The notes below the pieces were generated by a model. The model ran no database searches, was not told where the DNA came from, and saw nothing but the letters and a program-made list of their open reading frames with translations. DNA of 64,000 nucleotides from Mucilaginibacter sp. (GTDB taxonomy: Bacteria; Bacteroidota; Bacteroidia; Sphingobacteriales; Sphingobacteriaceae), in the NCBI GenBank assembly GCA_965225845.1, contig CBDDBL010000001.1, positions 86,889 to 150,888 on the forward strand. Direction: 5' to 3'. Positions 49,113 through 62,864 of the stretch are shown piece by piece. The translations under genes and the position numbers were made by a program. How positions within the stretch are numbered: the first letter of the stretch is position 1; the number at the start of each line of letters is the position of its first letter.

Positions 49113-50165
49113 CTAATATTTAGCCAATTCAGCGTTGAATAAGTTGAGCCATATGCCTGCGCCCGTATTATTCCAATGGGTGTCTGATCTGTAATAAACT
49201 TTATTTTTGTTTTTAGTAAGTACAGGTATCAGGTTTATATAGGTAACATGCAATTGAGGCGAGTTTTGAAAACGCGCTGTTAAGTGGTTATATTTTAATT
49301 TTAAGTAACCCGGCTCTAAAATTGAAACAGGGTTAGGTACAATAGTAAGATATACTTTATCAAATCCCATCTTTATAGCTTGCGCGCTTACCTTATTTAA
49401 ATTATCGACTAAAAAGTTGATACGTTTATCCGAAAACAACTTGAATGAACTTGTAGTCTGGCTTGAATCCGTAGTGATCACATAAAATAATTGTTTACGG
49501 TTTGATGCCACTACAACATCCTTATCAACTATGTTAAACAGCTTATAATTAATCCAGGCTTTAAATTCCTTTATCGGGGAAAATATAGAATAGTCCCACA
49601 AGTTTAGCTGAATATTATCACTAACTTTTCTATTGAATACAGAATTATTAATAAATGACTTCAGATTAAATATATTGGTTTTGGGCAAAACATCTGAGCC
49701 GGATGCTATAAGCATATTTTTAACATAATTGGTATCTGATAAAACCATATCAAGGTTCCTTTCGGAAAATTCCAGCAACAATATATTTTTTTTGGAACGA
49801 TCCAGATCAGCCACGATGGATTGTTTGATATTGGTTTTAGCGATTGTTAGCTTGTTAACCCCAACAAAAAAATCTTTACTCTTATAAAATCCCCAAAAAT
49901 AGCTATCGCAAATTGTGTACAGGTTGATGTTTTTAGCATGTGTAGCTTCGGGCAGCGGAATGGGGTTTTCTGTTGGATAAGTCTTCCTGAAATAAGGCAA
50001 ATAACTCATCCCGTACAGGTCGCCGTATTTAAACCTGTCTGATCCTAAAATCGCACCCGGCTGAAATCTATCTGCACTCAATATATTTGTTAAATTATCG
50101 CTAAGGCTTATTGCATAAATTACTATGCAGATAATTAATACCGATAAACCAAAAAATTTAGCCAT
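49113..50165 (-). CDS. AlgX/AlgJ-like SGNH-fold periplasmic O-acyltransferase
   Basis: N-terminal TM; ICDSY nucleophile-like motif; C-terminal YYRSDTHWN (DxHW); 2 bp from the MBOAT gene. Confidence 0.75.
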   Translation of the reverse strand: MAKFFGLSVLIICIVIYAISLSDNLTNILSADRFQPGAILGSDRFKYGDLYGMSYLPYFRKTYPTENPIPLPEATHAKNINLYTICDSYFWGFYKSKDFFVGVNKLTIAKTNIKQSIVADLDRSKKNILLLEFSERNLDMVLSDTNYVKNMLIASGSDVLPKTNIFNLKSFINNSVFNRKVSDNIQLNLWDYSIFSPIKEFKAWINYKLFNIVDKDVVVASNRKQLFYVITTDSSQTTSSFKLFSDKRINFLVDNLNKVSAQAIKMGFDKVYLTIVPNPVSILEPGYLKLKYNHLTARFQNSPQLHVTYINLIPVLTKNKNKVYYRSDTHWNNTGAGIWLNLFNAELAKY

Positions 50166-50167
50166 AA

Positions 50168-51583
50168 TTAAAACTGAAAATAGATAAATTCTTTATTATC
50201 AAATACACCAAAAATGTAGCAAGTCATCAGCAATAAGCTGATGGATAAAAAAAACAAACGGGTATTTGCGGTAGGAATAACCAGCATAAAGCGCTCCTTT
50301 ACAAGCAAAACTACAATTAACAGCGCCGTAAAACACAACATATTACCACTAACCAGGGCAAAATTAAACTTGCCGAAAAACGACTTGCTAAATATCTCAG
50401 CAAATACCACACTTGCGGTATGCAGATCCGGCGAGCGGAAAAATATCCAGGCAAAGGATACCAGCAAAAATATACTTATGGTTTGCGTAAGCCTGATGAA
50501 AGGGTTTGAGCGAATAACCAACCGCATTTTTTTAAAGATCGAATTTTTAGCGTTCTCTATCATTAAAAGCACCCCGTGAAATAACCCCCAGATCATAAAG
50601 GTCCAGTTGGCGCCATGCCAAAGGCCACTGATCAAAAACACCACCATTATATTAAAACACCTCCTTGCAGTACCTACCCGGTTACCGCCTAGAGGGATAT
50701 ATAAATAATCCCTGAACCAGGTGGACAGCGACATATGCCAGCGGCTCCAAAATTCACCTATGGAACGGGACAAATAAGGCACATTAAAATTTTCAACCAG
50801 CTTAATACCCATTGTTTTGGCCGCGCCAATACCAATATCGGTATAACCCGAAAAGTCGCAATAGATCTGAAAGGAATACAATAGGCTGATAATAAAGAAC
50901 GTAAACCCATTTTGCGATTTTGGGTCGGCGTAGGCTTTATCTATAATCCCAGCCAGCCTATCGGCAATCACTACTTTTTTAAATAACCCAAAAGCCATCT
51001 GCATTAAACCGCTTTTTAACTTCTCAAAATCAAAATCGTGATTTTTGTGAAATTGCCATAAAATATTTTGCGGCCTCTCAATTGGCCCTGCAACCAGTTG
51101 CGGGTAAAACATTACGTACAGGCTATAAATACCAAAATGCTTTTCAGCTTTATGGTTGCCCCTGTAAACTTCAATTGTATAACTCATGGCCTGGAAAGTA
51201 TGAAACGACAAGCCAATCGGCAGCAACATGGTAACAAACGGGAACGGCGTATGATGGCCCGAAAGATGCAGCAGGTGATCAAGCGCGCCATTAAAAAAAT
51301 TGAAGTATTTGAAGAATACCAATACGCCAATATTAGATACCAGGCTTATGATCAGCAGCAACTTTCGCAACGGTTTATTGGCTGCTTTTTCTATACAGAT
51401 GCCTGCTATATAATCTATAACGATGGTAAAGCCAATAATGAGGATATAGGATGGCACAAAAACCATGTAAAAGTAACAGCTCCCAATCAGTAATAATAAG
51501 TACCGGTGCTTATTAGGTAAATACCAATAAGTTATGGTTATGATAATATAGAACAGCAGGAACTGGAGGGAATTATAAAGCAT
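50168..51583 (-). CDS. MBOAT family O-acyltransferase (AlgI/DltB/PatA-like)
   Basis: FFKYFNF, LPIGLSFHTFQAMSY, FYPQLVAGPIER, YCDFSGY, ENFNVPY, FWSRWHMSL, SGLWHGANWTF. Confidence 0.95.
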   Translation of the reverse strand: MLYNSLQFLLFYIIITITYWYLPNKHRYLLLLIGSCYFYMVFVPSYILIIGFTIVIDYIAGICIEKAANKPLRKLLLIISLVSNIGVLVFFKYFNFFNGALDHLLHLSGHHTPFPFVTMLLPIGLSFHTFQAMSYTIEVYRGNHKAEKHFGIYSLYVMFYPQLVAGPIERPQNILWQFHKNHDFDFEKLKSGLMQMAFGLFKKVVIADRLAGIIDKAYADPKSQNGFTFFIISLLYSFQIYCDFSGYTDIGIGAAKTMGIKLVENFNVPYLSRSIGEFWSRWHMSLSTWFRDYLYIPLGGNRVGTARRCFNIMVVFLISGLWHGANWTFMIWGLFHGVLLMIENAKNSIFKKMRLVIRSNPFIRLTQTISIFLLVSFAWIFFRSPDLHTASVVFAEIFSKSFFGKFNFALVSGNMLCFTALLIVVLLVKERFMLVIPTANTRLFFLSISLLLMTCYIFGVFDNKEFIYFQF

Positions 51584-55113: not shown

Positions 55114-58100
55114 CTATCGTTGTGCCTGGCTCAATACACTGGCAAACTTACCCGCGTAGTCTTTATACTGCGCGGCATACTTGTCAGATAGTTCGTTTTG
55201 GTGACCATCCTTAGTAAACTGGGCCAAACCACCTAGAACCTGAACGCCGATCTCTATAGTTTCCGGATCTATCTGTCCGCTGTTATTTTGCAGCAGGTAA
55301 TAGTTATAATCCAGCTGATCTGTCAGGTAATCGTCAATGTCTTTAGAGATCTTATTGCCGATCACTACATCATTCAGCCGGTACGCCGCCTGGGCCAGGT
55401 ACAACTTTTTACCCTCAATCTGTATATACGGGTTAAGGTCGGGTAGCTCCTGGTCATATTTGGCTAATACTTTTAACGCCAGGTCGGGGCGTTTTTGCGC
55501 CGTTAATGCCTGTGTAAGATCAAGGAAAGCGGAGAGCAAACTGGTATACGACATAAATTTGGCTTCATGATCCAGGTATTTGGCGGTTTTAAAATTACCC
55601 CACTTAAATTTGTTCATTACATTATCGTACATCACCATGGCGTTCACATTTTCCCTTTGATTTTTTAAGGTGGTATCCGGCGTAAAAGGTATTAAATGAT
55701 AGGCAAAACCTTCTTTATACAAATAGGGCTCTAAGCCGATCATATTTTCATCGCCAACGGTTGATGTAAAACAGATAGGGCGTTTCCAGTGGTTATGCGC
55801 CAGGATATCGATCATGGCTAAATTCTCCTTGGTAACATAATTAGGCGGGAACTTAAATTTCAAAGTATCCGTCAATCTCGCCCTGTCGCTATCCGGCACT
55901 ACGCCACTTTTGATAACCTCATCCTTATTAATCGTGATCTTAAAGTTTTTTGTAGGCAGATAATTAGCCGACTCGCCGTTTTGGTACTGCGCCATGGTAG
56001 CCGGGTTATCCGATGTAATGAAATCAAACACGTCACTTAACTCGGTATAGCCGGGAATTTTCCTGTCATCAAAATAGATCACATCGCGCACGCCATCCTC
56101 ATATTTTTCATACGGCATGGTGATCGGCAGCGGTGCGGATTCATTCATCTTGCGTGTCATTTGCCTGATATACCAGCTGCCCGAGAACAAACTCAGGTTT
56201 ACAATGCGCACATCCGGGCGAATGCCTTCCACTTCCTGATCATACCATAGCGAGTAGGTATCATTATCGCCATAACAAAACAAAATGGCATTTTTTGGGC
56301 ACGAGTTCAGGTAATTATAAGCCATATCATGCGGAACCATTTTGGTGGAGCGGTCATGGTCTTTCCATTCTTCTTTAGCTAATACAACCGGGCCAGCCAA
56401 CAGGCAAACTGCCGTGGCGGCAAAAGCAGCAACTTTAGCGCTAAGTTTTTTGCGCAATACATCAGCAATGGCAACAACGCCAATCCCTATCCAAATAGCG
56501 AAGGCGTAAAAGGAGCCCACATAACTGTAATCGCGTTCGCGGGGTTGTATGTTGGGCTGGTTCACATAAAGCACAATCGCGATTCCGGTGAAGAACCATA
56601 GCAGTGTAACCACCAGCGCGTCTTCCTTGCGGCGGTTAAAATGGTATATCAACCCAAACAACCCAATAATTAACGGCAGGGCGAATAGTGGCGTATAAGT
56701 AACACCTTCCAAAGGCCTTGATGGGTCGCCGCCTATTACTGATTTTGGCAGATGCTTACTGCCATCAAAAATCCCCGACGTCCAGTTGCCATCAATACTG
56801 GTCATGCTGGCCATGCCTTCGGCATCATTGTAACGGCCCACAAAATTCCAGAAGAAATAGCGCCAGTACATCTGGTAGATCTGCCAGCTGAACAGGAATT
56901 TCAGGTTATCGCCAAAAGTTGGCGACTGCCCCTGCGGCAGGTTTAACCACGACGTATAAAACTGTACAGCGCTCGCGTAATCCTGGTCTCCCTGGGTAAT
57001 GTACATGCGTGGCAGTATGGTGTTATGATCATAAATAAGCTTTTGTTTTTTACCGGCAACCTCATATTGGGTTTTTCCTTTACGGTAAATTGTAGCGCCG
57101 TCGGTTTGGTCGATAGCCTTCGCATCAAAATACGGACCGTACAGTAATGGCGTTTCACCATATTGCTCGCGGTTTAAATAACTATTCAGGATAAAGGCAT
57201 TATCCGGGTGGTTATTATCCAGATCAGTGTTGGCGGTGGCGCGGATAGGAATATAAGCAAACGAACTATAACCCAGGTAAATAAATGTGCAGCACAAAAA
57301 CGCTAAATTAAGCATTGGCTTTTTGTATTTAGTGGTATAGTATAAGCCCGCGATCAGTAACGCGATCAGCAATACGATAAATACTGCCGCGCCGCTGCCG
57401 AAGCCCATCCCTAATGTATTCACAAAAAACAGATCGAAATAAGCTATACCGATAACCGTATAATTCCTGATACCATATTGCACAAATACCAGGATAACAA
57501 TACCCGTCAAAATGGCTAAAAGCGCGTTTTTAAGGGTGATCCTTTGCGTTCGGCGCAGGTAATAAACCAGTGCCAAGGCCGGGATTGTGAGCAAATTCAA
57601 TAAGTGGATCCCAATGGATAAACCAATTACGTAAGCAATAAAAACGATCCATTTATCGGCGCCCGGATCATCGGCATGGGCATCCCATTTTAATATTGCC
57701 CAAAATACCAGCGCAGTGCAGAATGACGACCAGGCAAACACGATAGTTTCCACAGCAGAGAACCAAAAGGTATCGGTATAAGCGAAAGCCAGAGCGCCAA
57801 CCAAACCCGCACCCATAATAAGGTATACTTTTGACTGATCCGCATCTTCTTCGCCTTTATAAGCAATCAGTTTTCTACATAGCGCGGTGATAGACCAGAA
57901 CAGCAGCATAATAGTACTGCCGCTTGCCAATGCCGAACCCATATTGGTAAAATAAGGCACTTTAGCATTGTTACCCATCGACAAGAGCGAGAATGCCTTG
58001 CCCAGCATGGCGAAAACCGGATAACCGGGCTCGTGGGCCACTTGCAGGCGGTAAGCGCAGGCAATGAATTCCCCGCAATCCCAAAAGCTTACAGAAGGTT

Positions 58101-58179
58101 CGAGAGTGAGGATATAACTGATGGAAGCGATGGCGAAACACAGCCAGCCTAATAAAGTATTAATTTTTCTATACTGCAT
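55114..58179 (-). CDS. DUF2723 domain GT-C glycosyltransferase (TMEM260-like)
   Basis: Start likely ATG 58179; PSVSFWDCGEFIA, HEPGYP, AVETIV, GIHLLNLL, YGDNDTY, RPDVRIVNLSL. Confidence 0.92.
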   Translation of the reverse strand: MQYRKINTLLGWLCFAIASISYILTLEPSVSFWDCGEFIACAYRLQVAHEPGYPVFAMLGKAFSLLSMGNNAKVPYFTNMGSALASGSTIMLLFWSITALCRKLIAYKGEEDADQSKVYLIMGAGLVGALAFAYTDTFWFSAVETIVFAWSSFCTALVFWAILKWDAHADDPGADKWIVFIAYVIGLSIGIHLLNLLTIPALALVYYLRRTQRITLKNALLAILTGIVILVFVQYGIRNYTVIGIAYFDLFFVNTLGMGFGSGAAVFIVLLIALLIAGLYYTTKYKKPMLNLAFLCCTFIYLGYSSFAYIPIRATANTDLDNNHPDNAFILNSYLNREQYGETPLLYGPYFDAKAIDQTDGATIYRKGKTQYEVAGKKQKLIYDHNTILPRMYITQGDQDYASAVQFYTSWLNLPQGQSPTFGDNLKFLFSWQIYQMYWRYFFWNFVGRYNDAEGMASMTSIDGNWTSGIFDGSKHLPKSVIGGDPSRPLEGVTYTPLFALPLIIGLFGLIYHFNRRKEDALVVTLLWFFTGIAIVLYVNQPNIQPRERDYSYVGSFYAFAIWIGIGVVAIADVLRKKLSAKVAAFAATAVCLLAGPVVLAKEEWKDHDRSTKMVPHDMAYNYLNSCPKNAILFCYGDNDTYSLWYDQEVEGIRPDVRIVNLSLFSGSWYIRQMTRKMNESAPLPITMPYEKYEDGVRDVIYFDDRKIPGYTELSDVFDFITSDNPATMAQYQNGESANYLPTKNFKITINKDEVIKSGVVPDSDRARLTDTLKFKFPPNYVTKENLAMIDILAHNHWKRPICFTSTVGDENMIGLEPYLYKEGFAYHLIPFTPDTTLKNQRENVNAMVMYDNVMNKFKWGNFKTAKYLDHEAKFMSYTSLLSAFLDLTQALTAQKRPDLALKVLAKYDQELPDLNPYIQIEGKKLYLAQAAYRLNDVVIGNKISKDIDDYLTDQLDYNYYLLQNNSGQIDPETIEIGVQVLGGLAQFTKDGHQNELSDKYAAQYKDYAGKFASVLSQAQR

Positions 58180-58344
58180 TGATTTAAGTTTTCGATATGT
58201 AAATATCAAATTTTAGGCGCGCAACAGGCAAACTAATTACACACTTTAACATACTTTAGCATAAAACCATTAAGTACAGCCATTTAACTTATTAGGTTTG
58301 TGTACCCCCATTAGTATTTAATATATGATGAGGAATTAAAAGCA

Positions 58345-58378
58345 AAAAGGTCCCGAACAGCGATTGTGAGGGACTTTT
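58345..58378 (-). terminator. Possible terminator between the collagen-like gene and DUF2723
   Basis: Minus strand reads GTCCC...GGGAC followed by CTTTTT; long loop and short stem. Confidence 0.4.
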
Positions 58379-58395
58379 AATTCTTGTTGACGTTT

Positions 58396-58496: not shown

Positions 58497-58634
58497 GAAT
58501 TTGATAGCGCAGCAAATCTGAATTCGGTGAGTGATCAATAATTGTAATCGCAGGATCTTCTTCAACAGACCCTGCGATTACTTAATAGCCGCTTAATTAT
58601 TTATAATTGTTACGCTATAGCTAATTAATTTATG

Positions 58635-61600
58635 TTAAAACGCATACCATTTGTTCACGCCATCACTTACCAGGCGAATAACACCAAATATTGTGTCAGA
58701 AGTACTATTAACAACCTGGTAAGCCGGGTCATATATTCTGTCGGCTGCTGCTGACGTAATTATCGTAATGCCTGAATTTGGAGTGACTGTTTGCATAATT
58801 ATGACAACCTGCCCTGCCACGAATGAAGATGCGGCAGGCAATCCTACATAATATGTAGGGCCATCCTGACTGATTAAATATAAGCTTTTCGCATTTGTTG
58901 ATGGTATATAAAAACTTGATGAAGAAACAGGATTTATAGTCAATATAGGTGAGGGAGGAGCCCACGCAACGCTGGTGCCATTATAAGTAAGTGCATTACC
59001 GGTTGCAGCACCTGTTGTTGATATATCGCCCGTAGCTACTTTACTAAATGTCAGGTTCCCACCTCCGCTGCCATGCAATACACTGTTAGTGCCAGCACCC
59101 TGGCCAGCAAATTGCGCGGAGGTAAGGCTAAGCGTAGTATTTGTCGCCGAGGTGACACGGCCTTTGGCGTCTACCGTAAAAAGTGATGCTCCCCCCAAAA
59201 TACCATAACTACCAGCTGTAACCCCTGTTGTAGCAAGTGAAACAGCTCCTGTACTGGAAACACTGCTTACATCGCCTGATAAGCTTGTTGGCGCAGTTGG
59301 TATAGCCCCACCCGTACCTGTTATGTATACCTGGCCTGCAGTATTGGTTGTGCTTGCTGTTAGACCTGCTCCGGTAGCACCTGCATTTCCTGGTGAACCT
59401 ACCGCACCCGTATTTCCGGTTGAGCCCGGATTTCCTGCTATATTTAAATTCCACGAGGTATAGGTAGGATTTCCCGGGCCGTGATAGGTATCTATAGTAA
59501 GCGTAATGCTTGCACCGATTATGTTCGTGACAATACCTTCCACATAGTCACTAGGAGTTGTGGACGATGTGAATCGAATACGTGAACCGACTGTATATGC
59601 AAATGGGTATGTGGAGACCGTGAAAGTTTTTGAGCCATAACTTGTACTGTTTGCGGAAGCAGAAGTAAAAGGGCCGTAACCATTACCGGTTGTACCTGTT
59701 GCGCCGGTCACGCCAGTAGCACCGGTCACGCCAGTTGCACCGGTCACACCAGTAATACCTTGTGAACCCGTAACACCAGTTGCACCAATAGCGCCGGTTG
59801 CTCCGGTAGTGCCCGTAACGCCGGTTGCACCAACAGAACCTGTAACACCGGTTGCACCCTGTAGGCCCTGCGCACCTGTAACACCGGTTGCTCCCGTAGC
59901 ACCAACTACACCTGTATTACCAGTAATGCCTTGAATACCTTGTGAACCAGTAACCCCAGTTACACCTTGGATACCCTGTGCTCCGGTAGAACCCGTTACA
60001 CCCGTAGCACCAATATCACCCGTATTGCCGGTAATGCCCTGAATACCTTGTAAACCAGTAGCGCCTGTAACCCCGGTTACACCTTGGATACCCTGTGCGC
60101 CGGTAGAACCAGTTACCCCGGTAGACCCTGTTGCGCCAGTAACCCCGGTTACACCCTGGATACCCTGCGCTCCGGTAGAACCAGTTACCCCGGTAGACCC
60201 AGTTGCGCCTGTAATACCCTGGATACCCTGAATGCCGGTAGAACCAGTTACCCCGGTAGACCCTGTTGCGCCAGTTGCGCCTGTATTGCCAGTAACGCCT
60301 TGAATACCCTGTAAACCTGTAACCCCAGTTACACCCTGGATACCCTGAATGCCTTGAGCACCTGTATTTCCTGTTATGCCCTGAATTCCTTGAGCGCCTG
60401 TTACTCCGGTTACACCCTGAATGCCTTGAATACCCTGTGAACCTGTAACCCCAGTTACACCCTGGATACCCTGAATACCGGTAGAACCTGTATTTCCAGT
60501 TATGCCTTGAATTCCTTGAGCGCCTGTTACTCCGGTTACACCCTGAATGCCTTGAGCACCTGTATTTCCTGTTATGCCCTGAATGCCTTGAGCGCCCGTT
60601 ACTCCGGTTACACCTTGTATTCCCTGGATACCTTGTGAGCCTGTAACCCCGGTTACACCTTGGATACCCTCTGCTCCAGTAACCCCAGTTGTACCCTGAA
60701 TGCCCTGTGCTCCGGTAGAACCAGTCGCACCAGTTATACCTTGAGCGCCTGTCAATCCGGTTACACCCTGAATACCCTGTGAGCCTGTAACCCCGGTTAC
60801 ACCCTGAATACCCTCTGCTCCAGTAACCCCAGTTGTACCCTGAATGCCCTGTGCTCCGGTAGAACCAGTCGCACCAGTTATACCTTGAGCGCCTGTCAAT
60901 CCGGTTACACCCTGAATACCCTGTGAGCCTGTAACCCCGGTTACACCCTGAATACCCTGAATACCTTGTGCTCCCGTAACACCCGTTGCGCCCTGTATGC
61001 CTTGAATACCCTGCAAACCAGTATTGCCCGTCGCACCAACAGCACCTGCAGTACCGGTTACACCCTGTATTCCCTGGATACCTTGTGCACCCGTAACGCC
61101 TGTTGCACCCTGTATGCCTTGAATACCCTGCAAACCTGTTGCTCCTGTAACACCGGTTGCACCCTGTATGCCTTGAGCACCTGTAACACCTGTTACACCC
61201 TGTATGCCCTGCAATCCTGTAACACCCTGAACACCTTGAGCTCCTGTATTTCCTGTTATGCCCTGAATACCCTGTGCACCGGTGTTTCCCGTAATGCCCT
61301 GTATCCCTTGTGACCCCGTAACGCCTGTTGCACCCTGTACACCTTGAATACCCTGCAAACCTGTTACTCCTGTAACACCGGTTGCACCCTGTATGCCTTG
61401 AATACCTTGTGACCCCGTAACACCTGTTGCGCCGGTAGCTCCCGTAACACCAGTTGCACCTTGTAGGCCCTGCGCACCGGCCGGGCCTACAGGGCCTATT
61501 GCTCCGGGTGTTCCCGGAATTCCCTGTGCGCCATTGGTACCTGCTGGTCCCTGCGGGCCTGTAGCGCCTGTTGCCCCGGTAACTCCTTTGGATCCGCCCG

Positions 61601-61994
61601 GGTTAAACGAATAGATAGCATAGGGGACACTCAATAACTCTGATGCACCCAGCAGCACATAACCTGACCCCAGGTCAACCTCTGTTTGAATATATTTTTG
61701 GCCCGATGCCCAGTTGATGCCGGCATAACTCCCCTGGGTAACATTGCCGTTGCCCACACTAATGACAAACAGGCCGTAGGTATCCGTAGTTACCGTTTGT
61801 GTTTCCTGGTACTCAACCGTGCCTGTCGGCGAGCCTGTAAGAATGGACAGCCTGACATTAATCTGCTTATTGGTGAGCAAGGCTCCGTTTGAGCCACGCA
61901 CGATCGCCTGGTACTTAAAGGCCTGCGATTGCGCTAATGACTTTCCGCCACAGATGAAGATGAAGAGTATTACAAGAAGTAAAAGTTTTTTCAT
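58635..61994 (-). CDS. Exported collagen-like fibre protein (N-terminal YQA...SVPYA domain, 212 Gly-X-Y triplets, tail-fibre-like C-terminal modules)
   Basis: Signal peptide; residues 134-769 are uninterrupted Gly-X-Y; a second short GXY run follows; [12 protein letters not shown] motif. Confidence 0.93.
59688..61595 (-). repeat. Collagen triple-helix repeat region (9-bp periodicity)
   Basis: 1908 bp = 636 codons = 212 triplets, dominated by GVT, GAT, GIQ, GAQ, GSQ, GST, GNT, GIT, GLQ. Confidence 0.97.
60664..60951. repeat. Perfect 144-bp tandem duplication inside the collagen region
   Basis: 60664-60807 and 60808-60951 are identical base for base (48 aa, 16 triplets). Confidence 0.95.
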
Positions 61995-62038: not shown

Positions 62039-62590
62039 TTAATATTTAACCAGTTTAACCTCGCCGTGGAAAAGGGTTGGGTTGACTACCTGTACAAAAT
62101 AAACACCGCCCGCGTAATGGGATATATTAATCGGGAAGTAATAATAATTTATAGCTTTATAATCTACGGTTTGCGATTGGAGGATCCTGCCCATGGCATC
62201 AAACACGTTGATCGTGTAAACTCCGTCGGGTACATGGTTAAAGGCAAGTTTAACTACCCCGCCATTGGCCGGGTTAGGAAAAATACTCAGTGATTTGGGC
62301 GAGTTTGCCAAAACCTGCGATACTTCAAGGTCGGGCTGCTCAAAGCCGGTGGTTAAATATAAGTGGGGGTTGATCTCTGTATTGGATAACAGGCCGCCTA
62401 TAGCTTCGCCCGCAACAAAACTTAACGTAACATCAGCATTTTTGTAGGTATCACCCGCTGAAGACACTACCGAACGGGTTATATATTGCGCATGAGAAGC
62501 ACGTACTGCAAATACAGTTACGCCAATCATTAGGAAATTGCGCGTTAAATTTTTCAACGCCATAAAGATAAACTTATTGCAATTATTCAT
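62039..62590 (-). CDS. Small T9SS type A sorting-domain protein
   Basis: Signal peptide (alternative start 62563); VVSSAG...LSFVAGE...TGFEQP core; C-terminal domain IFPNPANG...GVYTINVFDAMGRIL...GGVYFVQV...KLVKY. Confidence 0.9.
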   Translation of the reverse strand: MNNCNKFIFMALKNLTRNFLMIGVTVFAVRASHAQYITRSVVSSAGDTYKNADVTLSFVAGEAIGGLLSNTEINPHLYLTTGFEQPDLEVSQVLANSPKSLSIFPNPANGGVVKLAFNHVPDGVYTINVFDAMGRILQSQTVDYKAINYYYFPINISHYAGGVYFVQVVNPTLFHGEVKLVKY

Positions 62591-62658: not shown

Positions 62659-62864
62659 TAAACTTTGTACTGGCGGATGGGTGCCGCGTTTATTAGCAAA
62701 AAGCCCCAAACAGCGATTTTAAAGGACTTTTAAATTTATTTTTAATAACGATGCCCTTTGTTAAGGCTATGCCGGCACAGCATAACTTAATTTTTGACTT
62801 GTTGACGAACCTTGCCCGCTGAGAGAAATGAGAATAGGTTTTGAAGATTAAATTATCTTGTTTT

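What the first reader, a model, noticed from the sequence alone, without database searches (positions are those of the whole stretch)
59688..61595. Very long, uninterrupted, almost Pro-free and uncharged Gly-X-Thr/Gln collagen
Seen: 212 consecutive triplets with no break. Pro occurs only in about the first 13 triplets, and charged residues are limited to one K, one D and two E. Y is almost always Thr or Gln, X is mostly V/I/A/S/L/N, and blocks of (GXT)n alternate with (GXQ)n. Established: Pro-rich (mammalian) and charge-stabilised (streptococcal Scl) collagens use neither strategy, while Thr-rich bacterial collagens such as Bacillus BclA are O-glycosylated. Inference: this is a rod of about 180 nm (0.29 nm per residue) stabilised by Thr glycosylation or hydrophobic/Gln packing. 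It could span the capsule or EPS and is of biomaterial interest.
Basis: partly seen in the sequence, partly recalled or inferred. Interest (0 to 1): 0.62.

Follow-up and report, generated by a model that had tools for sequence, protein, structure and literature searches.

The report
Collagen stalk of a Bacteroidota surface fibre
The long glycine-repeat stretch is real and is the roughly 180 nm stalk of a probably three-stranded cell-surface fibre of a soil-type Bacteroidota bacterium; it is near the top of the length range I sampled, but it belongs to a very large fibre family and its threonine/glutamine make-up is common in bacterial collagens.

Summary
A minus-strand ORF (58635-61994, 1119 aa) holds 213 uninterrupted Gly-X-Y triplets (59679-61595). 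Y is Thr or Gln in 92% of them, there are 6 Pro (all in triplets 5-13), and only 4 charged residues.

The rod is not a free-standing collagen. It is the stalk of a modular fibre: signal peptide, a 112-aa N-terminal beta-sandwich homologous to the N-domain of Bdellovibrio MAT (mosaic adhesive trimer) fibres, the rod, then a 347-aa modular head. A 183-aa protein that is little more than a type IX secretion (T9SS) tag lies 44 nt upstream. This pairing recurs in 4 of 4 genus relatives that carry the fibre and in 55 of 80 named Bacteroidota loci.

Long, Pro-poor, uncharged Thr/Gln rods are not unique. The closest relative has 219 triplets and a metagenome protein has 230.

The adjacent TMEM260-like glycosyltransferase is a ubiquitous multi-copy gene, is not linked to the fibre elsewhere, and no glycosyltransferase recurs near these genes. 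The glycosylation idea therefore has no genomic support, though it is not excluded.

This scan has already met the same fibre-plus-partner family on other DNA. Verdict: a new member of a known kind, of moderate interest.

The parts
62039..62590 (-). Mini T9SS partner gene (183 aa): signal peptide, about 60-aa conserved N-part (motif ...TTGFEQPD...), then a type A T9SS C-terminal sorting domain. Its stop is 44 nt upstream of the fibre start, with no hairpin between.
   Evidence: Pfam Por_Secre_tail 1.8e-08 and TIGR04183 1.1e-06. Orthologues lie directly upstream of the fibre gene in G021, G017 and G010. By HMM, a homologue sits directly upstream on the same strand of 51 of 98 fibre genes. By clustering, the partner family occurs in 55 of 80 loci.
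61932..61994 (-). Signal peptide of the fibre (aa 1-21, [21 protein letters not shown] | QSQ)
   Evidence: Read from the sequence. In 101 of 117 relatives the conserved domain starts at residue 20-29, straight after an ...AQ-type cleavage site.
61596..61931 (-). N-terminal domain (aa 22-133), a 7-strand beta-sandwich ending in the invariant motif LSVPYA. Inferred to be the cell-proximal docking domain.
   Evidence: All 40 of 40 family members hit NCBIfam NF053851 Bdello_MAT_N (best 2.7e-12; this protein 2.9e-07; below the 60-bit cut-off). AF2 model pLDDT 90.5. No PDB match at E <= 0.001. 27,293 database representatives.
59679..61595 (-). Collagen rod: 213 uninterrupted G-X-Y triplets (aa 134-772), built mostly of GVT, GIQ, GAT and GAQ in (GXT)2-3(GXQ)2-3 blocks. 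About 183 nm long if triple-helical.
59436..59678 (-). Head module 1 (aa 773-853): small beta domain YGPF...WNLNIAG. The same module is interspersed between collagen runs in other proteins. Candidate trimerisation or nucleation module.
   Evidence: AF2 pLDDT 72-90 for this part only. Repeated four times between collagen runs in P0003; also found in P0004, P0005, P0008 and L059. PHROG 31840 3.9e-07. One cyanophage hypothetical protein at 38% identity.
59364..59435 (-). Second, short collagen run (8 triplets, aa 854-877)
58965..59363 (-). Head module with the repeat type ...TGVTAGSYG...[12 protein letters not shown]... and ...[10 protein letters not shown]... This type occurs many times over in giant fibre proteins.
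   Evidence: Matches to P0001, P0002 (about 15 copies), P0006 and P0007. AF2 pLDDT 81-85 for aa 922-957 and low elsewhere.
58638..58964 (-). C-terminal tip (about aa 1011-1119, ending ...[13 protein letters not shown]). A rare, variable end domain, inferred to bind the ligand.
   Evidence: Found in only 1 of 40 relatives by whole-genome search (G021). jackhmmer adds G017, P0009, L046 and L097. No Pfam, NCBIfam or PDB match. The model here is of low confidence.
58544..58581 (-). Hairpin with a 15-bp stem, 54 nt after the fibre stop codon. Likely transcription terminator of the two-gene unit.
   Evidence: sequence.
58345..58380 (.). Downstream copy of a 36-nt hairpin-like direct repeat that flanks the two-gene cassette
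   Evidence: 83% identical to the copy at 62698-62733. These are the only two copies in the 3.6-Mb genome.
62698..62733 (.). Upstream copy of the same 36-nt repeat, between mgtE and the partner gene

Best explanation
The G-X-Y stretch is the stalk of a homotrimeric cell-surface fibre of a Bacteroidota bacterium. The fibre belongs to a very large mosaic family whose N-terminal domain is homologous to that of the Bdellovibrio MAT fibres.

Shown here:
- The domain order is signal peptide, conserved N-domain, 213-triplet rod, modular head.
- The N-domain is fused in relatives to quite different stalks (collagen, YadA-like repeats, other repeats) and tips (S74 chaperone, C1q/BclA-like by eye, others).
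- A mini protein carrying a T9SS sorting tag is encoded directly upstream in most related loci.
- The genome has the T9SS translocon SprA and the shuttle PorV.

Inferred:
- The chain is exported by Sec.
- Three chains trimerise at the C-terminal head, and the collagen helix zips from the C-terminus to the N-terminus.
- The N-domains dock on the mini partner, which takes the fibre through or to the T9SS and tethers it to the outer surface.
- The roughly 183 nm rod then holds the variable head away from the cell as an adhesin or receptor-binding tip.
- With almost no Pro or charge, the rod would be held together by the obligatory Gly packing, by hydration and hydrogen bonds of Thr/Gln in Y, by beta-branched or aliphatic Val/Ile/Ala in X, and by being clamped at both ends by folded trimeric domains.
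- Dedicated glycosylation is possible, but nothing in the genome points to it.
For: - Anatomy of the gene.
- N-domain homology to MAT: NF053851 is hit by 40 of 40 members, best 2.7e-12, without the signal peptide.
- N-domain fold: a confident beta-sandwich (pLDDT 90.5) with no PDB homologue. Caulton et al. 2024 (PMC10769870) say the same of the MAT N-domain, and propose that it sits next to the cell and binds an unidentified surface element.
- Mosaicism.
- Family size and taxonomy: at least 595 loci in genomes, nearly all labelled Bacteroidota; 27,293 representatives; only 4 hits in 2.9 million viral contigs, and 2 of those carry the T9SS partner too.
- Partner linkage: 4 of 4 genus members in different genomic contexts. 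By HMM, 51 of 98 fibre genes have it directly upstream. By unbiased clustering it is in 55 of 80 loci and is the only recurrent neighbour family.
- T9SS parts: SprA 2558 bits, PorV 423 bits.
- Strict Gly register: kept in orthologues with stalks of 127, 137 and 219 triplets. All tandem-repeat periods are multiples of 9 nt.
- No phage genes nearby: the neighbours are MgtE, a GDSL lipase, an MFS transporter, MBOAT/AlgX-like proteins and a TMEM260-like protein.
Against: - Nothing here shows expression, trimerisation, a triple helix or surface location.
- A Pro-free, uncharged G-X-Y sequence is expected to be a marginal triple helix. (Gly-Pro-Thr)10 is a random coil unless glycosylated (cited in PMC11923368).
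- The N-domain match to the MAT model is below NCBI's cut-off (30-34 bits against 60) and covers only model positions 15-79 of 162.
- The partner's role is inferred from gene linkage alone. About 45% of fibre genes have no detected partner directly upstream, although many of these sit in tandem arrays and my HMM was built from only four close sequences.
- PorU, which would cleave and anchor the tag, was not detected in this genome or in 8 relatives.
- The head model is poor (pLDDT 59).
Confidence: 0.68

Rival explanations
1. Glycosylation-dependent collagen. The Thr-rich rod folds only after O-glycosylation, as proposed for BclA-type collagens. The TMEM260-like GT-C enzyme encoded next door, or one of its paralogues, adds mannose to the rod in the periplasm.
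For: 116 Thr in Y positions. A TMEM260-like O-mannosyltransferase homologue starts 426 nt downstream on the same strand (Pfam 2.9e-67). Glycosylated Thr stabilises G-P-T peptides and BclA is glycosylated (PMC11923368 and PMC8968730).
Against: The enzyme is in 25 of 25 good genus genomes in 1-4 copies, whereas the fibre N-domain was found in only 3 of 24 genus relatives. In G021 it lies about 80 kb from the fibre, and G017 and G010 have other neighbours. A strong hairpin and a second terminator-like repeat separate the two genes. No glycosyltransferase family recurs within 6 kb of 80 related loci. The rod has no D-(S/T)-(A/I/L/V/M/T) motif; the only one is at aa 1100 in the tip. From memory, recombinant unglycosylated BclA still forms a triple helix (Boydston et al. 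2005).
Confidence: 0.15
2. Phage-derived tail fibre: a prophage or tailocin structural protein rather than a cellular surface fibre.
For: Head modules resemble repeats found in phage-like fibre proteins. PHROG 31840 scores 3.9e-07. One cyanophage protein has 38% identity to module 1. Relatives carry Peptidase_S74 and phage collar domains. The best, non-significant, fold matches include phage depolymerases and tailspikes.
Against: The protein has a Sec signal peptide. There are no phage genes in the neighbourhood. The N-domain occurs in at least 595 cellular loci against 4 of 2.9 million viral contigs, and 2 of those 4 carry the T9SS partner, which has no place in a virion. The head has no close relative in IMG/VR and only one weak hit in 50,697 phage genomes. 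The gene is single-copy in the genome.
Confidence: 0.05
3. Not a triple helix. The G-X-Y region is a flexible, low-complexity spacer, or adopts another structure, because it lacks Pro and charge pairs. Alternatively the gene is not expressed.
For: Pro makes up 0.9% and charged residues 0.6% of the rod. Short G-P-T peptides do not fold unaided (PMC11923368). There are no expression data.
Against: A disordered linker has no need for Gly at every third residue. Here the register is unbroken for 213 triplets, is conserved in orthologues of different length, and every repeat period is a multiple of 9 nt. Synonymous divergence among identical peptides shows selection on the protein. The rod is flanked by modules typical of trimeric fibres.
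Confidence: 0.1

Closest known systems
Bdellovibrio bacteriovorus MAT (mosaic adhesive trimer) fibres, non-S74 subgroup such as Bd2133 (Caulton et al. 2024, PMC10769870; NCBIfam NF053851)
   Same: The N-terminal domain follows straight after a signal peptide and is homologous (40 of 40 members hit NF053851), with no PDB homologue. Both have a long trimer-type stalk and a mosaic, swappable C-terminal head. In both, the family splits into members with and without an S74 chaperone.
   Different: The stalk here is a collagen triple-helix-type repeat rather than the intertwined beta-prisms reported for the MAT C-terminal regions. The organism is a Bacteroidota, not a predator. A T9SS-tagged mini partner is co-encoded; that Bdellovibrio has no T9SS is my own knowledge. 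The score is below the NCBIfam cut-off, so this is a sister group, not a member of that subfamily.
BclA exosporium glycoprotein of Bacillus anthracis/cereus
   Same: Both have a Thr-rich G-X-T collagen stalk without hydroxyproline that carries a C-terminal head at the far end of a surface filament. The stalk length varies between strains or species.
   Different: From memory, BclA repeats are mostly G-P-T (Pro in X) and much shorter. BclA has a C1q-like head and an exosporium-targeting N-terminus and is known to be glycosylated. The protein here has almost no Pro, 80 G-X-Q triplets, a different head and N-domain, and sits in a diderm cell envelope.
Streptococcal Scl1/Scl2 and Legionella Lcl collagen-like adhesins
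   Same: Both are bacterial surface proteins with a collagen-like stalk. The NCBIfam models match the rod.
   Different: All matches are below the cut-offs (302 against 325, 256 against 400, 319 against 500 bits) and cover only the G-X-Y part. Scl proteins are rich in charge and LPXTG-anchored, and Lcl has its own C-terminal domain. None of these features is present here.
Uncharacterised metagenomic Thr/Gln collagen proteins (for example P0139 with 230 triplets, P0130 with 187, and L042 with 219 + 45)
   Same: They share the same composition class: Y mostly T/Q, X mostly A/V/I, little Pro and little charge. Some carry the same N-domain and partner gene.
   Different: Their heads differ, and none has been studied experimentally as far as I could find.

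Membership tests
Collagen triple-helix repeat (Pfam PF01391) | Uninterrupted Gly-X-Y repeats matching the model above the gathering score | tested here: met
   E = 4.9e-101, 330.9 bits against a cut-off of 27.2; 213 consecutive triplets.
Collagen triple-helix repeat (Pfam PF01391) | Actual triple-helical conformation (CD band, cooperative melting, rod in EM) | not testable with these tools
   Needs purified protein.
MAT (mosaic adhesive trimer) fibre superfamily | Conserved N-terminal domain homologous to NF053851 | tested here: inconclusive
   The match is significant and consistent (this protein 2.9e-07; 40 of 40 relatives, best 2.7e-12). However, it is below the curated 60-bit subfamily cut-off and covers model positions 15-79 of 162.
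MAT (mosaic adhesive trimer) fibre superfamily | One N-domain combined with many different stalks and C-terminal tips (mosaicism), with S74 and non-S74 members | tested here: met
   Relatives carry collagen, YadA-like, S74, DUF1566/Lcl-type, Fib_succ, fn3, collar and other domains. The head of this protein was found in only 1 of 40 relatives.
MAT (mosaic adhesive trimer) fibre superfamily | Trimeric fibre displayed on the cell surface | not testable with these tools
   Inferred from the collagen repeat and the signal peptide only.
T9SS cargo protein | C-terminal sorting domain (type A TIGR04183 / PF18962, or type B) | tested here: not met
   No CTD was detected in the fibre with Pfam or NCBIfam, even at E <= 10 for the head. 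The CTD is in the upstream partner instead.
BclA-type exosporium collagen | C1q/TNF-like C-terminal domain and exosporium-targeting N-terminus | tested here: not met
   No family or PDB sequence match for the head, and the N-domain is of the MAT type. Some relatives (L007, L042) do have a head that looks BclA/C1q-like by eye, but I did not test this.
Scl1/Scl2 (LPXTG-anchored) and Lcl adhesins | Score above the equivalog cut-off; LPXTG anchor or Lcl C-terminal domain | tested here: not met
   301.9 against 325, 256 against 400, and 318.7 against 500 bits. The matches are confined to the G-X-Y region, and the sequence has no LPXTG motif.
Phage tail fibre with intramolecular chaperone (Peptidase_S74) | C-terminal S74 chaperone domain; phage structural gene neighbourhood | tested here: not met
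   No PF13884 match in this protein. The neighbours are cellular genes.
Trimeric autotransporter adhesin | C-terminal YadA-type membrane anchor | tested here: not met
   No anchor domain was found, and the protein ends in a soluble-looking tip.

The most novel reading that the evidence does not exclude
The rod is a natural collagen triple helix about 180 nm long that is essentially free of imino acids and charge, and that folds with no post-translational modification. It would be stabilised only by Thr/Gln hydration, by Val/Ile/Ala in X, and by end-clamping domains. That would be a third stabilisation regime beside the Pro/Hyp and charge-pair collagens. The whole trimer would reach the surface by riding on a mini T9SS-tagged partner that becomes its anchor, which would also name, at least for Bacteroidota, the still unidentified surface element to which MAT-type fibres attach.
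Probability: 0.25. Interest if true: 0.6.

Novelty: new member of a known kind. Interest (0 to 1): 0.36.

Why it matters
For collagen biophysics, this is a clean natural test case. It offers 639 residues with 0.9% Pro and 0.6% charged residues, built from about four triplet types (GVT, GIQ, GAT, GAQ). It can show whether Thr/Gln-type bacterial collagens need glycosylation to fold, which recent reviews still treat as open (PMC11923368).

For microbiology, the value lies in the context more than in the rod. The gene belongs to a family of more than 27,000 representative proteins, nearly all from Bacteroidota. No Pfam model covers the family's N-domain, and my paper searches found no description of it in Bacteroidota. 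The family is homologous to the Bdellovibrio MAT fibres and is genetically tied to a mini T9SS substrate, which makes the question of how these fibres are exported and anchored directly testable.

As a biomaterial lead it is one of many similar sequences. It has no special merit beyond its length and its lack of interruptions.

Tried and rejected
- Prophage origin: rejected. There are no phage genes nearby, the protein has a signal peptide, and viral collections are almost empty of the N-domain and of the head.
- Functional link to the adjacent TMEM260-like glycosyltransferase: rejected as unsupported.
- An empty-site test, asking whether mgtE lies next to the glycosyltransferase orthologue in 13 relatives: it does not, so this was uninformative.
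- A general X-Y pairing code (Val with Thr, Ile/Leu with Gln): it holds strongly in this rod. In 86 relatives only the Ile-Gln preference is general (odds ratio above 1 in 47 of 86). It therefore mostly reflects this protein's repeat history.
- Fold searches: the N-domain and the head gave no significant PDB match, and the head model is too poor (pLDDT 59) to interpret beyond module 1.
- PDB sequence searches: nothing.
- PorU search: no full-length hit in this genome or in 8 relatives. This is probably a limit of the search or a diverged gene, and it is unresolved.
- The search for related loci with the head alignment failed for lack of conserved columns.
- Literature searches for a described Bacteroidota collagen fibre or T9SS pairing found nothing relevant.
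Full report
**1. Observation**

The feature lies on the minus strand, inside a single intact ORF at 58635..61994 (1119 aa). A script found one unbroken run of 213 Gly-X-Y triplets, aa 134-772 = window 59679..61595.

- X residues: V54, A54, I53, S20, L10, N10, T7, P4, D1.
- Y residues: T116, Q80, plus 17 others.
- All six Pro lie in triplets 5-13.
- The only charged residues are K (triplet 1), E (87 and 103) and D (176).
- Four triplets make up two thirds of the rod: GVT 51, GIQ 41, GAT 29, GAQ 20.
- T-runs and Q-runs of two or three triplets alternate, and the autocorrelation peaks at 4 and 8 triplets.
- Pfam Collagen scores 4.9e-101.
- Every tandem-repeat period reported by TRF is a multiple of 9 nt.
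- Identical 12-residue peptides are encoded by DNA that is only 85-91% identical, and all four Gly codons are used. The pattern is therefore held by selection on the protein, not by recent slippage alone.

One caveat remains. A 144-nt unit repeated 2.3 times at 97% identity could in principle be mis-counted by an assembler.

**2. What the rod belongs to**

The protein has four parts:
- a signal peptide (aa 1-21);
- a 112-aa N-terminal domain ending in ...[11 protein letters not shown];
- the rod;
- a 347-aa C-terminal head, which contains a second 8-triplet collagen run.

*The N-terminal domain.* No Pfam family covers it. It hits the NCBIfam model NF053851, the N-domain of the Bdellovibrio mosaic adhesive trimer (MAT) fibres. 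Without the signal peptide the hit stays (2.9e-07), and all 40 of 40 relatives that I aligned hit the same model (best 2.7e-12), always below the curated 60-bit cut-off. AlphaFold2 on that alignment gives a confident 7-strand beta-sandwich (pLDDT 90.5), and no PDB structure matches it at E <= 0.001. Caulton et al. 2024 say the same of the MAT N-domain: invariable, without structural homologues, probably next to the cell surface and bound to a surface element not yet identified (PMC10769870).

*The family is very large and mosaic.*
- A profile of the N-domain finds 27,293 representatives at E <= 0.001 in 1.84 billion proteins. Among the 150 best hits listed, the domain nearly always starts at residue 21-37.
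The 80 loci listed are nearly all labelled Bacteroidota: Chitinophagaceae, Sphingobacteriaceae, Pedobacter, Flavobacterium, Chryseobacterium, Bacteroidales, Cyclobacteriaceae and others.
- Genomes carry from 0 to 11 copies.
- Behind the same N-domain come collagen runs, YadA-like NTAIG repeats or other repeats.
- The tips include Peptidase_S74 chaperones, DUF1566/Lcl-type, Fib_succ, fn3 and phage-collar domains, and (by eye) C1q/BclA-like heads.
- About a quarter to a third of the sampled members use a collagen stalk (24 of 128; 38 of 102).

*The head of this protein is rare.* By whole-genome search it was found in only one of 40 relatives, with weak, piecewise matches elsewhere. Its first module (aa 773-853) is a small beta domain that in other proteins sits between collagen runs, four times in P0003. 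It is the only part of the head that AlphaFold models with confidence. The middle part carries the widespread ...GVTAGSYG...[12 protein letters not shown]... repeat.

**3. The conserved partner**

A 183-aa ORF ends 44 nt upstream, on the same strand. It consists of a signal peptide, about 60 conserved residues (...TTGFEQPD...) and a type A T9SS C-terminal sorting domain. The fibre itself has no such domain.

- Three other species of the genus carry the fibre, and in all three the same small gene lies directly upstream. Their flanking genes differ: a histidine kinase, an HTH-pentapeptide protein and a GT2, against mgtE here.
- In 80 named loci, a crude HMM built from four sequences finds the partner directly upstream, on the same strand, of 51 of 98 fibre genes.
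- An unbiased all-against-all clustering of every neighbouring ORF shows that the fibre (80 of 80 loci) and the partner (55 of 80; 18 of 22 collagen-type loci) are the only widely recurrent families. The next are EF-G (8 loci) and PorP/SprF (5 loci).
- The genome has SprA (2558 bits) and PorV (423 bits). PorU was not detected here or in eight relatives, which I cannot explain.
- A 15-bp-stem hairpin follows the fibre stop codon.
- A 36-nt hairpin-like repeat, present only twice in the genome, brackets the two genes. This fits a self-contained, perhaps inserted, two-gene unit.

**4. How it most likely works**

Shown: the architecture, the family, the linkage to the partner, and the presence of T9SS parts. 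The rest is inference.

- After Sec export, three identical chains would trimerise at the C-terminal head.
- The triple helix would then zip towards the N-terminus, the direction described for collagens in general (PMC11923368).
- The three N-domains would dock on the mini partner. Its T9SS tag would take the complex to or through SprA and leave it tethered on the surface.
- The rod, 639 residues x 0.286-0.29 nm = 183-185 nm, would hold the variable head away from the outer membrane.

The periplasm cannot hold such a rod end-on, so export is the natural expectation. Stability without Pro or charge would have to come from the Gly packing, from Thr/Gln hydration, from aliphatic and beta-branched X residues, and from clamping at both ends. 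This is the weakest step. (Gly-Pro-Thr)10 does not fold unless glycosylated (cited in PMC11923368). From memory, however, full-length unglycosylated BclA with its trimerising head does fold.

**5. Glycosylation and the neighbouring glycosyltransferase**

The evidence goes the other way.
- Homologues are in 25 of 25 good genomes of the genus, in 1-4 copies, and twice in this genome (88% identical).
- The fibre N-domain was found in only 3 of 24 genus relatives.
- In G021 the two genes are about 80 kb apart on one contig.
- Two terminator-like hairpins lie between them here.
- No glycosyltransferase recurs near the 80 related loci.
- The rod has no D-(S/T)-(A/I/L/V/M/T) motif; the only one is at aa 1100. 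That this motif is the general Bacteroidota O-glycosylation sequon rests on my own knowledge.

Glycosylation by an unlinked enzyme is not excluded.

**6. How unusual is the rod?**

- Reviews state that Thr is the predominant Y residue in bacterial collagens (31.6% overall). They also state that Thr triplets are over-represented in bacteria, archaea and viruses, and that bacterial collagen chains reach 6000 residues (PMC8968730, PMC11923368).
- A search with the rod found 4612 proteins at E <= 1e-20 among only 8000 scored candidates.
- Of the best 120, two have uninterrupted runs of at least 213 triplets: P0139 with 230, all-Thr Y, 0.1% Pro and 0.3% charge; and P0224 with 213. Sixteen have runs of at least 150, and several are Pro-free.
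- The closest relative of this very protein has 219 + 45 triplets. It lies on a contig labelled Rhizobium sp. Q54 that is probably mis-binned (N-domain 63% identical, partner E = 3e-55).
- Within the genus the stalk is 127, 137 and 213 triplets long, so length is an evolving variable.
- Among N-domain proteins that I sampled, this rod is the second longest.

**7. Rivals**

- Prophage tail fibre: very unlikely (5%). It has a signal peptide and cellular neighbours, there are 4 viral against at least 595 cellular loci, and the T9SS partner is present even in those viral contigs.
- Non-helical spacer or silent gene: about 10%. The perfect, conserved Gly register argues against it.
- Glycosylation-dependent folding: about 15%; see section 5.

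**8. Earlier notes of this scan**

After I had reached the MAT link and the partner linkage, a word search showed that this scan has met the same fibre-plus-mini-T9SS-partner family several times on other genomes. One of those cases has an almost proline-free stalk. Two first-reader notes cover the same gene here. They agree with my results; I did not use them as evidence.

**9. Verdict**

It is partly unsupported: rarity, glycosylation and capsule-spanning. The thing itself is the collagen stalk of a MAT-like Bacteroidota surface fibre with a conserved T9SS-tagged partner. It is a new member of a known kind and of moderate interest. Its main value is as a clean experimental test case and as one more instance of a large fibre family for which I found no description in Bacteroidota.

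Noticed in passing
window 58345-58380 and 62698-62733: A 36-nt hairpin-like direct repeat (83% identical) brackets the partner-plus-fibre cassette and occurs only at these two places in the 3.6-Mb genome. It could be a duplicated terminator or a scar of cassette insertion.
   Followed up: partly
window 55114-58209 (minus strand): The TMEM260-like/DUF2723 GT-C glycosyltransferase has an 88%-identical paralogue on contig 2. The family is present in 1-4 copies in every good genome of the genus. I found no study of the bacterial homologues: DUF2723 appears in only one paper of the library, on human TMEM260.
   Followed up: partly
own genome (G000), whole: SprA and PorV are clearly present, but the PorU sortase models (NF033707, PF01364) find no full-length match in this genome or in eight genus relatives. 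PorU is not next to porV.
   Followed up: partly
L042 (CALRLQ020000008.1, 5409-9210): A MAG labelled 'Rhizobium sp. Q54' carries the closest relative of this cassette, with a mini T9SS partner and a 219 + 45-triplet fibre. A T9SS tag in a Rhizobium points to a mis-binned Bacteroidota contig.
   Followed up: no
L094 8551-9549 and four other loci: A PorP/SprF-family T9SS membrane protein gene lies within 6 kb of the fibre gene in 5 of 80 related loci.
   Followed up: no
P0249 (database protein, 916 aa): One protein has six tandem copies of the fibre N-terminal domain, an architecture unlike the usual single copy after the signal peptide.
   Followed up: no
window 59679-61595: Within the rod, X and Y are strongly coupled: Val goes with Thr (51:2) and Ile/Leu with Gln (49:13). 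In pooled relatives Ile also prefers Gln (266 T against 2345 Q), but Val does not prefer Thr.
   Followed up: yes
window 49113-51583 (minus strand): An MBOAT (AlgI-like) gene and an AlgX-like SGNH gene lie next to each other. This suggests a polysaccharide O-acetylation pair.
   Followed up: no
L023 11402-12025: In the genus relative G021 a 207-aa protein with a phage tail collar domain (Pfam 2.8e-28) lies just downstream of the fibre gene on the opposite strand.
   Followed up: no
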